The notes: a model not told the origin generated them from the letters alone. A stretch of 64,000 bases of DNA from Chitinophagaceae bacterium (GCA_947457465.1 CANGWB010000005.1:11829-75828), one strand, 5' to 3'. Counted from the first letter of the stretch, positions 12,401 to 14,188 are shown. Numbers and translations are program-made.

Positions 12401-14188
12401 ATGGATAAATTCATTGTTTCCGCCAGAAAGTATCGCCCACAGACCTTTGACTCGGTCGTGGGACAAGCCCATATCACGACCACTTTACGAAATGCCATCC
12501 GCCAGAAACACCTGGCACATGCATTTCTTTTCTGCGGACCAAGAGGGGTGGGCAAAACAACCTGCGCCCGGATCCTCGCAAAAACAATCAACTGCGAAAA
12601 AATAACCGCAGAGGGTGAAGCCTGTGATCAATGCACCAACTGTCGTTCCTTCAACGAAGGTAGCTCCCTGAATTATTTTGAATTGGATGCGGCTTCCAAT
12701 AATTCAGTCGACCAGATCCGTGACCTCACCGAGCAAGTTCGCTTCATGCCACAGGCAGGAACACATAAAGTTTATGTGATCGATGAGGTTCACATGTTAA
12801 GCACGGCCGCCTTCAACGCATTCCTGAAAACGTTAGAAGAACCCCCTCCCTACGCGATCTTCATTCTGGCGACTACCGAAAAACACAAAATATTACCGAC
12901 AATCCTGAGTCGTTGTCAGATCTTCGACTTCAAGCGTATCACGTTGCGCGACACGGTGGATCACCTGACCTCTATCTGTAAAAAAGAATCGATCCCAACG
13001 GAAGAGAACACGCTACAACTCATCGCACAGAAAAGTGAGGGATGCATGCGCGATGCCCTCAGTTTATTGGATAAGATCGTCAGCTTCAGTGGTGGCACCC
13101 TGAGCTATGCGCAAACACTTGAACACCTGAACATCCTGGACGCCGACTTGTATTTTCAACTACTTGAATTACTCAAGCAGCAACAGCTCAGCGAGTCTTT
13201 ACTCCTGTACGACGGCATTCATCAAAAAGGATTTGAAGGCGATCAATTCCTATCCGGATTCGCTGAATTTCTTCGCAATCTACTCGTCAGCCAGGATGAA
13301 AAAGCAGCCGGCCTACTCGATGTGGCAGAAGGATTCAAAGAGCGTTACCGTTTAGTAGCACCCACATTCTCTGCCGGATATTTGGTTAGCGCCCTCAACC
13401 TGATCAACCAGACCGAGGTTCAATACAGAACCGCACGTAACAAGCGACTTCAAGTGGAGTTGGCGCTGATCAAACTGGCCTATCTGCAGCAGGCACTGGA
13501 CCTTTCTGCAGGTGAGTCCGGATCAAAAAAAAAAATAACGGATAGTCCGCTGGCATTCAGGATCCGTCCCATCCGCAGTGTACGCAAACAATCGCCCCCG
13601 GCATCCCCACCCAGCAACTTACCGGAAGCAAAACTGATCATCGAAACCGGCAGCGAGCCCCCTCCAATATGGCAAAACCCGAGTTCGACGAAACCTGCTA
13701 CCCCACTACCCGCTACTGTAAGCACCCCTTCCCCCAAGTTAAGTGCACTGAGTAAAATACGTGGACAGTTCGCTCAAGCCAAACCTACATCTTCCGAAGA
13801 AAAAGTGATCGATCTCGAGATAGGCTCATTAATGGAGGCCTGGTCGGTTTACACGGAAGATTTGCGGGAGAAAAAGAATCCGGCCGTTCCTTCTTTTGAA
13901 CGGGCCCGACTGGAATGTGTCGGCTCCAATGAATTCAAGGTGATCAGCTTCAATAACATCGAGCAACGCTTCATCGAACAAGAAAGAAACCCGCTCTATG
14001 AATTCCTGGTAAGTCGACTTCGGATCCCCTCCATTCAATTTCAGGTTTTCGTGGGCGAACCCGATCCTGCCGAACAACAGAATATCCCGGTTACCCTCTC
14101 GAGCCGTGATCAATTCCAAGCCATGCTGGCACAATACCCACTGGTGGAGACGTTGAAGGAAAAGCTGGGACTGGACCTGGATTACTGA
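12401..14188 (+). CDS. dnaX: DNA polymerase III subunit gamma/tau
   Basis: ARKYRPQTF, GPRGVGKTT, zinc module C-C-C-C, ELDAASNNSVD, IDEVHML, LKTLEEPP, TILSRCQ.FDF, GCMRDALSLLD; Pro-rich linker then C-terminal domain. Confidence 0.97.
   Translation: MDKFIVSARKYRPQTFDSVVGQAHITTTLRNAIRQKHLAHAFLFCGPRGVGKTTCARILAKTINCEKITAEGEACDQCTNCRSFNEGSSLNYFELDAASNNSVDQIRDLTEQVRFMPQAGTHKVYVIDEVHMLSTAAFNAFLKTLEEPPPYAIFILATTEKHKILPTILSRCQIFDFKRITLRDTVDHLTSICKKESIPTEENTLQLIAQKSEGCMRDALSLLDKIVSFSGGTLSYAQTLEHLNILDADLYFQLLELLKQQQLSESLLLYDGIHQKGFEGDQFLSGFAEFLRNLLVSQDEKAAGLLDVAEGFKERYRLVAPTFSAGYLVSALNLINQTEVQYRTARNKRLQVELALIKLAYLQQALDLSAGESGSKKKITDSPLAFRIRPIRSVRKQSPPASPPSNLPEAKLIIETGSEPPPIWQNPSSTKPATPLPATVSTPSPKLSALSKIRGQFAQAKPTSSEEKVIDLEIGSLMEAWSVYTEDLREKKNPAVPSFERARLECVGSNEFKVISFNNIEQRFIEQERNPLYEFLVSRLRIPSIQFQVFVGEPDPAEQQNIPVTLSSRDQFQAMLAQYPLVETLKEKLGLDLDY
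13525..13535 (+). other. A11 homopolymer slippage/frameshift site in dnaX
   Basis: TCA AAA AAA AAA ATA ACG GAT AGT: with one A fewer the frame meets TAA at 13536-13538; with one A more it meets TAG at 13543-13545. Confidence 0.8.

What the first reader, a model, noticed from the sequence alone, without database searches (positions are those of the whole stretch)
13520..13545. dnaX A11 tract wired to give gamma by slippage in either direction
Seen: an 11-A run (13525-13535) right after the clamp-loader domain III (…LIKLAYLQQALDLSAGESGS KKK). With 10 A the frame reads S-K-K-K-TAA (378 aa). With 12 A it reads S-K-K-K-N-N-G-TAG (381 aa). With 11 A it gives full-length tau (595 aa). It is the longest homopolymer I noticed in any CDS here. 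Known: Thermus thermophilus makes gamma and tau by transcriptional slippage on an A9 run, and E. coli by -1 ribosomal frameshifting at this same boundary. Inference: a programmed recoding site that sets the gamma:tau ratio in this lineage.
Basis: partly seen in the sequence, partly recalled or inferred. Interest (0 to 1): 0.72.

Follow-up and report, generated by a model that had tools for sequence, protein, structure and literature searches.

The report
Conserved poly-A slippage site in dnaX
A run of eleven A's in the DNA-replication gene dnaX of a freshwater Chitinophagaceae bacterium is a conserved slippery site that very probably lets one gene make both the long (tau) and short (gamma) clamp-loader proteins. 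The trick has been shown in Thermus and was already predicted for other Bacteroidetes, so this is a real but expected feature.

Summary
dnaX (12401-14188, +) carries A11 at 13525-13535, about ten residues past clamp-loader domain III. A11 gives a 595-aa tau. A10 or A13 ends at TAA (378/379 aa), and A12 or A9 ends at TAG (381/380 aa).

It is the longest homopolymer in the whole 2.06-Mb genome and the only AAA-AAA-AAA among 105 Lys-Lys-Lys triplets in long ORFs. Eight independent metagenomes confirm it and show no indels.

All 56 distinct Chitinophagaceae relatives keep an A9-A11 run there and never use AAG. Their downstream synonymous sites co-vary so that stops persist in both alternative frames. 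Elsewhere in Bacteroidota, 46 of 57 loci keep the run. In 18 of those, the essential tau lies in the +1A or -1A frame, so slippage must work there.

No conserved stem-loop or Rfam dnaX element is present. The best reading is Thermus-type transcriptional slippage, with a possible ribosomal contribution. No RNA data cover the site, so products and ratio remain unshown.

Poly-A recoding of dnaX in Bacteroidetes was predicted by Antonov et al. 2013. This is a new member of a known kind, of modest interest.

The parts
12401..14188 (+). dnaX, full-length tau ORF (595 aa) as encoded by the genomic A11
   Evidence: ORF list. Pfam DNA_pol3_delta2, ATPase lid and gamma domain III. NCBIfam PRK14971/PRK05563/TIGR02397 dnaX. 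Matches PDB E. coli tau/gamma.
12401..13534 (+). Part shared by tau and the predicted gamma: domains I-III, a short linker and Ser-Lys-Lys-Lys
   Evidence: Domain III ends at residue 365. Residues 5-360 align to the 373-aa crystallised E. coli gamma core.
13525..13535 (+). A11 slippery tract (codons 375-379: TCA AAA AAA AAA ATA)
   Evidence: An A9-A11 run at the homologous spot in 56/56 family contexts and 46/57 other Bacteroidota loci.
13536..13538 (+). TAA stop read in transcripts with one A fewer or two A's more (A10, A13), giving a 378/379-aa gamma
   Evidence: An equivalent stop immediately after the run is kept in 52/56 family contexts by co-varying codons (xTA-G/A, xTG-A). The rare Ile codon ATA (10% usage) is used in 25 contexts.
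13543..13545 (+). TAG stop read in transcripts with one A more or two fewer (A12, A9), giving a 381/380-aa gamma
   Evidence: In relatives the stop is usually TGA, formed by a T at the third position of the second codon after the run (ATT/GTT/GCT/ACT in 47/56 contexts) followed by GA.
13535..14188 (+). tau-specific C-terminal part (residues 379-595), reached only when the tract length is 11 plus or minus 3n
   Evidence: The NCBIfam PRK14971 profile covers residues 1-594.
13535..13535 (+). Natural A/G polymorphism. The allele A10+G (Ile to Val) coexists with A11 and keeps both off-frame stops
   Evidence: read laying on 8 metagenomes. The 96%-identical MAG locus L045 carries A10-G.

Best explanation
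The A11 tract is a programmed recoding site of the Thermus thermophilus dnaX type. While RNA polymerase copies the eleven T's of the template, the short rA:dT hybrid can realign, so the mRNA pool carries tracts of different lengths. Messages with 11 plus or minus 3n A's are translated into full-length tau, with 0 or plus or minus 1 Lys. All other messages meet a stop within 0-3 codons after the lysines: TAA at 13536 in one frame and TAG at 13543 in the other. They give a gamma of 378-381 aa (about 42 kDa) that holds the complete clamp-loader core (domains I-III) but lacks the polymerase- and helicase-binding C-terminus. Some slippage by the ribosome on the same A-run may add to this. Shown here: the tract, the frames and stops, their conservation and synonymous-site co-variation, the avoidance of such tracts elsewhere in the genome, the stability of the tract in DNA, and relatives in which tau itself needs the shift. 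Inferred: that the RNA is heterogeneous, that gamma is made, and in what ratio.
For: (1) Anatomy.
(2) Counter-selection elsewhere: run counts fall from 187 (length 8) to 13 (length 9), and dnaX is the only run of 11. Only 1 of 105 KKK triplets is all-AAA.
(3) Conservation: 56/56 distinct Chitinophagaceae contexts have A9 (19), A10 (31) or A11 (6). Tau is always in frame there, the A+1-frame stop lies at 5-7 codons in 56/56, and the A-1-frame stop lies at 3-4 codons in 52/56.
(4) Synonymous-site selection: Ile after the run is always ATA, which is 10% of Ile codons. The next codon ends in T in 47/56 contexts across Ile, Val, Ala and Thr. Given the amino acids, the chance of keeping both stops is 0.02-0.25 per lineage.
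(5) Slippage must be efficient in the clade: in G025, G027 and G030 (same order), and in 18 of 46 run-bearing other Bacteroidota loci, the genomic frame stops after the run and the essential tau continues in the +1A frame (12 loci) or the -1A frame (6 loci).
(6) No E. coli-type stimulators: the downstream 50 nt fold no better than shuffles (mean z -0.28) and there is no Rfam hit, including the DnaX element.
(7) DNA stability: no indel in contigs of 8 metagenomes, and both natural alleles keep tau in frame.
(8) Literature: Thermus A9 with stops in both non-zero frames, giving about 50% full-length product (PMC1088944; PMC5009743). An A10 tract was predicted as a transcriptional realignment site in dnaX of Flavobacterium, Cytophaga, Capnocytophaga and Chlorobi (PMC3711429, Fig. 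S3).
Against: There is no direct evidence of heterogeneous transcripts or of a gamma protein in this organism or any Chitinophagaceae. The two metatranscriptome runs that hold dnaX fragments do not cover the tract, and no RNA runs were found for two isolate-like relatives. The slippage behaviour of Bacteroidota RNA polymerase on A9-A11 is untested. Sequence alone cannot separate transcriptional from ribosomal slippage. Only a tRNA-Lys(UUU) gene was found (the assembly has 30 tRNAs), which is the condition under which A-rich heptamers are shifty in E. coli. SD-like 4-mers occur 5-20 nt upstream in 35% of family loci against 10% in controls. Some lineages lack the run altogether (11 of 57 other Bacteroidota loci, two of them truncated contigs, and the complete genome G034), so gamma made this way is not indispensable.
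Confidence: 0.74

Rival explanations
1. The same site works mainly at the ribosome. Tandem tRNA-Lys slippage on A_AAA_AAA gives a -1 shift (less often +1 or -2) on a homogeneous mRNA, as in E. coli dnaX, and the shifted ribosomes terminate at the nearby stops.
For: A-rich heptamers are known -1 shift sites (PMC5009743). Only tRNA-Lys(UUU) was detected. The -1-frame stop is conserved in 56/56 family contexts. SD-like 4-mers are moderately enriched upstream.
Against: A_AAA_AAA is reported as much less shifty than A_AAA_AAG (PMC5009743). There is no conserved downstream stem-loop and no Rfam DnaX element. The run is always 9 or more, the length at which polymerase slippage becomes efficient, whereas 7 would suffice for the ribosome (PMC5009743). 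The stop in the other frame is conserved almost as strictly (52/56). Relatives need a shift to that other frame to make the essential tau (6 loci), which -1 frameshifting cannot give.
Confidence: 0.15
2. The tract is a heritable DNA-level switch (phase variation by replication slippage). It toggles lineages or cells between tau-in-frame and gamma-in-frame states, rather than being an RNA-level device.
For: The frame of tau relative to the run differs between species across Bacteroidota, so one-base changes of the tract do become fixed over evolutionary time.
Against: Contigs from 8 metagenomes show no indel at the tract in this species, only an A/G substitution. All 56 family contexts are in the tau-in-frame state. 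A cell in the gamma-only state would lack the essential tau unless RNA-level slippage also worked, so this rival presupposes the main explanation. Contigs drop rare variants, so low-frequency length variants are not excluded.
Confidence: 0.04
3. The run is incidental: a Lys-Lys-Lys linker that happens to use AAA codons, with no functional truncated product.
For: Gamma is dispensable in some bacteria, and some Bacteroidota lack the run. No product has been observed here.
Against: AAA-AAA-AAA is otherwise avoided in this genome (1 of 105 KKK triplets). The nucleotide run, not the residue count, is conserved. Synonymous sites downstream are constrained to keep the stops. Relatives split dnaX at the run.
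Confidence: 0.05

Closest known systems
Thermus thermophilus dnaX programmed transcriptional slippage (Larsen et al. 2000 PNAS 97:1683; Yurieva et al. 1997; as described in PMC1088944 and PMC5009743)
   Same: A homopolymeric A-run of 9 or more in the sense strand of dnaX. Tau is encoded in one uninterrupted ORF. Stop codons lie close by in both non-zero frames. The short product lacks the C-terminal domains.
   Different: The run is A11 here (A9-A11 in the family) against A9. The host is a mesophilic Bacteroidota at 48% GC rather than a GC-rich thermophile. The tract lies directly after domain III, at 63% of the ORF. Transcript heterogeneity and the two proteins have been demonstrated in Thermus and not here.
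Two-ORF dnaX genes with an A10 tract (GeneTack dnaX cluster; Antonov, Coakley, Atkins, Baranov, Borodovsky 2013, NAR 41:6514, PMC3711429, Fig. S3): Flavobacterium johnsoniae and psychrophilum, Cytophaga hutchinsonii, Capnocytophaga ochracea, Chlorobi, Coraliomargarita
   Same: Same phylum (Bacteroidetes) or sister phylum, same gene, same junction, same poly-A tract and same proposed mechanism (programmed transcriptional realignment). I found such forms in the window's own order (G025, G027, G030) and in 18 of 46 run-bearing other Bacteroidota loci.
   Different: In those genes the genomic frame gives gamma and tau needs the shift. In the window, and in all 56 Chitinophagaceae contexts, tau is in frame and gamma needs the shift. 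A frameshift-detecting program such as GeneTack does not flag this single-ORF form.
Escherichia coli dnaX -1 programmed ribosomal frameshifting (A_AAA_AAG, upstream Shine-Dalgarno, downstream stem-loop; Rfam DnaX element)
   Same: Same gene and same biological outcome (gamma as a C-terminally truncated tau). An A-rich lysine-coding shift site with a stop shortly after in the -1 frame.
   Different: There is no AAG-ending heptamer, no conserved stem-loop, no Rfam match and no consistently placed SD. The run is longer than a ribosomal site needs, and the second alternative frame is also closed.
Caulobacter crescentus DnaX processing by ClpXP (Vass and Chien; cited in PMC5009743 and bioRxiv 10.1101/2022.11.10.516041)
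   Same: It produces a gamma-like form from a single tau ORF, which underlines that two DnaX forms are selected for in many bacteria.
   Different: It is a post-translational mechanism with no slippery nucleotide tract.

Membership tests
Thermus-type dnaX transcriptional slippage site | Homopolymeric A-run of at least 9 in the dnaX sense strand, between the clamp-loader core and the tau-specific C-terminus | tested here: met
   A11 at 13525-13535, codons 375-379. Domain III ends at residue 365.
Thermus-type dnaX transcriptional slippage site | Tau encoded by one uninterrupted ORF at the genomic tract length | tested here: met
   595-aa ORF 12401-14188. Confirmed without indels in 8 metagenomes.
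Thermus-type dnaX transcriptional slippage site | Stop codons close by in both non-zero frames | tested here: met
   TAA at 13536-13538 and TAG at 13543-13545. Conserved in relatives through co-varying synonymous sites.
Thermus-type dnaX transcriptional slippage site | mRNA population with heterogeneous tract length that is not present in DNA | not testable with these tools
   RNA contigs of X23 and X24 cover 12409-12636 and 12915-13116 only. No RNA runs were found for G027 or G028 dnaX. DNA shows no length variants.
Thermus-type dnaX transcriptional slippage site | Two protein products (tau and gamma) in the cell | not testable with these tools
   No proteomic data are available. Indirect support only: relatives whose tau requires the shift.
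Two-ORF (reversed) dnaX, Antonov et al. 2013 | The genomic frame terminates at the tract, and tau is reachable only by recoding | tested here: not met
   Tau is in frame in the window and in 56/56 family contexts. The feature is met in relatives G025, G027 and G030 and in 18 other Bacteroidota loci.
E. coli-type dnaX -1 ribosomal frameshift signal | A_AAA_AAG heptamer | tested here: not met
   The tract is all-A followed by T. An A_AAA_AAA heptamer is present but no AAG. The natural A10-G allele would create AAA_AAG only in the A-1 register.
E. coli-type dnaX -1 ribosomal frameshift signal | Downstream stimulatory stem-loop | tested here: not met
   Mean z of the 50 nt downstream is -0.28 over 73 loci. 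For the window, -9.8 kcal/mol and z +0.3. No Rfam family matches at E up to 10.
E. coli-type dnaX -1 ribosomal frameshift signal | Upstream Shine-Dalgarno-like stimulator at fixed spacing | tested here: inconclusive
   SD-like 4-mers at -20 to -5 in 19/54 family loci (35%) against 10% at control positions. Strict 5-mers in 4/54. The window has AGGTGA. The 16S 3' end is not in the assembly.

The most novel reading that the evidence does not exclude
This reading has two parts. First, slippage at the dnaX A-run may be so efficient across Bacteroidota that the genomic frame of the essential tau C-terminus is nearly neutral and drifts among all three frames, with only the Chitinophagaceae holding it in frame. 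Second, within this one lake species the two coexisting alleles, A11 and A10+G, would slip at different rates. That would make them standing natural variation in the gamma:tau ratio, and hence in replisome stoichiometry. A nascent-RNA hairpin against the run, which I saw mainly in lineages whose tau depends on the shift, would be a second tuning element.
Probability: 0.22. Interest if true: 0.55.

Novelty: new member of a known kind. Interest (0 to 1): 0.35.

Why it matters
Why bacteria keep two forms of DnaX is still an open question (bioRxiv 10.1101/2022.11.10.516041). Independent ways of making gamma are the main argument that the short form matters: ribosomal frameshifting, transcriptional slippage and proteolysis. 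This locus adds a large, uncultured-rich family (Chitinophagaceae) to the lineages that use the Thermus-style solution. The synonymous-site co-variation is unusually clean, which shows selection acting on the stops in both alternative frames.

For annotation, dnaX in these genomes should carry a note that a second product of about 378-381 aa is expected. The split dnaX genes in related Bacteroidota should not be called pseudogenes. It does not change the known picture of recoding, so its value is confirmatory.

Tried and rejected
(1) Direct RNA evidence. Only two metatranscriptome runs hold pieces of this dnaX, and neither covers the tract. RNA-run searches with the dnaX of two isolate-like relatives, G027 and G028, returned nothing.

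(2) I tried to locate Flavobacterium johnsoniae dnaX, which has much RNA-seq, using the motif printed in Antonov's Fig. S3. I searched 400 Flavobacterium genomes and found no match (one search was a syntax error).

(3) E. coli-type stimulators. Folding of the 40 nt upstream and 50 nt downstream gave mean z of about -0.3, and Rfam gave no hit. Rejected.

(4) Terminator-like hairpin against the run (Roseiflexus IS model; PMC5009743). The last 5 nt before the run are paired more often than in shuffles over all loci (0.50 vs 0.39, p=1.5e-4). In Chitinophagaceae the effect is not significant (0.42 vs 0.35, p=0.07), and the window's own hairpin ends 4 nt short of the run. I do not accept it as part of this site.

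(5) Assembly artefact or DNA-level length polymorphism: rejected.

(6) The primary Thermus paper (PMC26496) is not held, so its content is cited through PMC1088944 and PMC5009743.

Full report
OBSERVATION. The window's ORF 12401-14188 (+) encodes a 595-aa DnaX. Pfam finds the clamp-loader ATPase module, the lid and gamma domain III, which ends at residue 365. NCBIfam gives dnaX equivalogs, best PRK14971 over residues 1-594. Residues 5-360 align with residues 4-357 of the crystallised 373-aa E. coli gamma core.

The outcomes by tract length are:
- A11: 595 aa.
- A10 and A13: stop at TAA 13536-13538, giving 378 and 379 aa.
- A12 and A9: stop at TAG 13543-13545, giving 381 and 380 aa.

IS IT MORE THAN CHANCE? 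The window lies on contig C5 of a 2.06-Mb, 46-contig assembly. In that whole genome the counts of A/T runs are 2366 of length 6, 798 of length 7, 187 of length 8, 13 of length 9, one of length 10 and one of length 11. The run of 11 is the dnaX tract. Runs of 9 or more are therefore strongly avoided, and dnaX holds the extreme.

Lys is coded 60% by AAA. Yet of 105 Lys-Lys-Lys triplets in ORFs of 400 aa or more, only one is AAAAAAAAA, the dnaX tract itself, against about 22% expected.

The tract is not an assembly error. Logan contigs of eight freshwater or lake metagenomes reproduce it with no inserted or deleted letter. They show two coexisting alleles: A11, and A10 followed by G (13535 A>G, Ile to Val, linked to SNPs at 13484, 13489 and 13513). 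Both alleles keep tau in frame and both off-frame stops. A 96%-identical MAG (locus L045, labelled Chitinophagaceae) carries the A10-G allele.

RELATIVES. All 41 relatives sampled have dnaX. I oriented every locus and read the junction. I then added 80 named loci from the genome collection. These confirm the family as Chitinophagaceae and reach across Bacteroidota.

In 56 distinct Chitinophagaceae contexts:
- The run is A9 (19 contexts), A10 (31) or A11 (6), and the lysines are never AAG.
- Tau is always in frame.
- The A+1 frame stops 5-7 codons from the first lysine codon in 56/56.
- The A-1 frame stops at 3-4 codons in 52/56.

The stops are kept by co-variation rather than by identity. The first codon after the lysines is ATA, GTA or CTA when the next codon begins with G or A (making TAG or TAA). 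It is ATG, CTG or TTG when the next codon begins with A (making TGA). Ile is always ATA, which is only 10% of Ile codons in this genome. The second codon ends in T in 47 of 56 contexts across four amino acids (ATT, GTT, GCT, ACT) and is followed by GA, which makes TGA in the other frame. Given the amino acids and the genome's codon usage, the chance of keeping both stops as close as observed is 0.02-0.25 per lineage. This is the signature of selection on the alternative frames themselves.

SLIPPAGE MUST WORK IN THE CLADE. In three families of the same order the genomic frame stops right after the run and the tau C-terminus continues in another frame. G027 has A10 and tau needs one more A. G025 (A10) and G030 (A11) need one fewer A, or equivalently two more.

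Of the 57 other Bacteroidota loci, 46 carry a run of 9 or more. Tau is in frame in 28 of them, needs +1A in 12 and needs -1A in 6. The remaining 11 loci have no run, and two of those are truncated contigs. Tau is the essential form that binds the polymerase and the helicase (established knowledge; bioRxiv 10.1101/2022.11.10.516041). These genomes therefore can only live if the tract is mis-copied or mis-read at a useful rate. In all of them the two non-tau frames close quickly: within 10 codons in 95 of 107 run-bearing loci.

MECHANISM. The literature gives two precedents. In Thermus thermophilus, an A9 run with stops in both non-zero frames gives a heterogeneous mRNA population and about 50% full-length product (PMC1088944; PMC5009743). 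In E. coli, -1 ribosomal frameshifting occurs at A_AAA_AAG, helped by an upstream Shine-Dalgarno sequence and a downstream stem-loop (PMC5009743; PMC3711429).

The E. coli-type helpers are not found here:
- The 50 nt downstream fold no better than shuffles (mean z -0.28 over 73 loci; the window gives z +0.3).
- No Rfam family, including the DnaX element, matches 13300-13800 even at E=10.
- SD-like 4-mers are present upstream in only 35% of family loci, against 10% in controls. The enrichment is plausibly a by-product of Gly and Glu codons.

Three points favour polymerase slippage as the main route. The run is always at least 9, the length at which polymerase slippage becomes efficient (PMC5009743). 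Both alternative frames are closed. Some relatives need the frame that a -1 ribosomal shift cannot reach.

A ribosomal contribution cannot be excluded. Only a tRNA-Lys(UUU) gene was found, although the assembly holds only 30 tRNA genes.

The review describes Thermus transcripts as carrying one or several extra A's, and two extra A's reach the same frame as one missing A (A13 gives SKKKK*). The double stop therefore shows that every non-3n tract length ends in gamma. It does not show that both insertion and deletion occur.

DIRECT EVIDENCE. None could be obtained. Two metatranscriptomes contain dnaX fragments (12409-12636 and 12915-13116), so the gene is transcribed, but neither covers the tract. 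Searches for RNA runs of two isolate-like relatives found nothing. An attempt to reach Flavobacterium johnsoniae dnaX also failed.

COMPARISON AND NOVELTY. Antonov et al. 2013 (PMC3711429) reported 17 dnaX genes split into two ORFs. Nine of these have an A10 tract aligned to the Thermus site, including Flavobacterium johnsoniae, F. psychrophilum, Cytophaga hutchinsonii and Capnocytophaga ochracea, and the authors proposed transcriptional realignment. Poly-A recoding of dnaX in Bacteroidetes is therefore already in the literature.

What the window shows is the single-ORF (Thermus-like) state of the same device in Chitinophagaceae. A frameshift finder cannot flag this state. I found no paper that combines dnaX, Bacteroidetes and slippage other than Antonov et al.. 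Earlier notes of this scan list about 125 similar dnaX findings in other genomes, mostly judged 'new member of a known kind'. My independent tests agree with them. I file this as a new member of a known kind.

SIDE OBSERVATION ON A HAIRPIN. Earlier notes raised a terminator-like nascent-RNA hairpin against the run, like the Roseiflexus IS element (PMC5009743). Across 101 unique loci, the last five bases before the run are paired with upstream bases more often than when the upstream 30 nt are shuffled (0.50 vs 0.39, p=1.5e-4). The effect comes from non-Chitinophagaceae loci (0.60 vs 0.44, p=3e-4). It is not significant in the window's family (0.42 vs 0.35, p=0.07).

Among the non-family loci, pairing is 0.49 where tau is in frame, 0.71 where tau needs +1A and 0.89 where it needs -1A (p=0.004, n=28, 12 and 6). 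This has no phylogenetic correction, and the constrained hairpin energies do not differ. It is a lead, not a result. For this window the hairpin (13496-21, -7.6 kcal/mol) ends 4 nt before the run, so I do not count it as part of the site.

VERDICT. The mechanism is most likely Thermus-type transcriptional slippage (confidence 0.74 for a programmed slippage site with transcription as the main level). It is a known kind, and interest is modest (0.35).

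Noticed in passing
window 13535 (with linked sites 13484, 13489, 13513): Two alleles of the tract coexist in lake populations: A11 (Ile), and A10 followed by G (Val). Both keep tau in frame and both off-frame stops. In some runs the A10-G allele dominates (X1, X2, X5, X12), and in others the two are mixed (X3, X6, X11).
   Followed up: partly
L009 (G019:C11), junction of dnaX: This same-genus dnaX reads CAG TAA AAA AAA ATA, with an in-frame TAA at the 5' edge of an A9 run. 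It looks like its neighbour L008 with one extra base upstream and one A fewer. Simple tract slippage would not rescue tau. It may be an assembly error or a doubly shifted gene.
   Followed up: no
L094, L099, L118, L102 and other non-Chitinophagaceae loci, the 36 nt before the run: A short hairpin ends directly at the A-run (for example CCGCATCAGTAGATGCGG-A10). Pairing of the last 5 nt is highest where tau needs the shift: 0.71-0.89 against 0.49.
   Followed up: partly
L029/L042 (G034, complete 5.97-Mb genome of the same order); L088, L089, L092, L096, L097, L103, L109, L111, L119: These dnaX genes have no A-run of 7 or more at the junction. Several are labelled Bacteroidaceae or Bacteroidales. 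How, or whether, they make gamma is open.
   Followed up: no
own genome, contig C3:7186-7195 (outside the window): The second-longest homopolymer in the genome is an A10 run coding KKK at residue 168 of a 181-codon open frame, 13 codons before its stop. It may be another slippage-prone site, or it may lie at a gene end.
   Followed up: no
L023 (G007:C321) and G007:C372: The dnaX of this MAG is broken between two contigs a few bases after the A9 run. This suggests that assemblers tend to break at the tract.
   Followed up: no
G014:C96 and G014:C10: One same-genus MAG holds two full-length dnaX copies, each with an A10 tract (loci L004 and L041). It is probably a mixed bin of two strains or species.
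   Followed up: no
L024 (G006:C4:176071-177859): The dnaX of this 8-contig same-genus genome changes frame near residue 107, far from the A-run. It is either a sequencing error or a disrupted gene.
   Followed up: no
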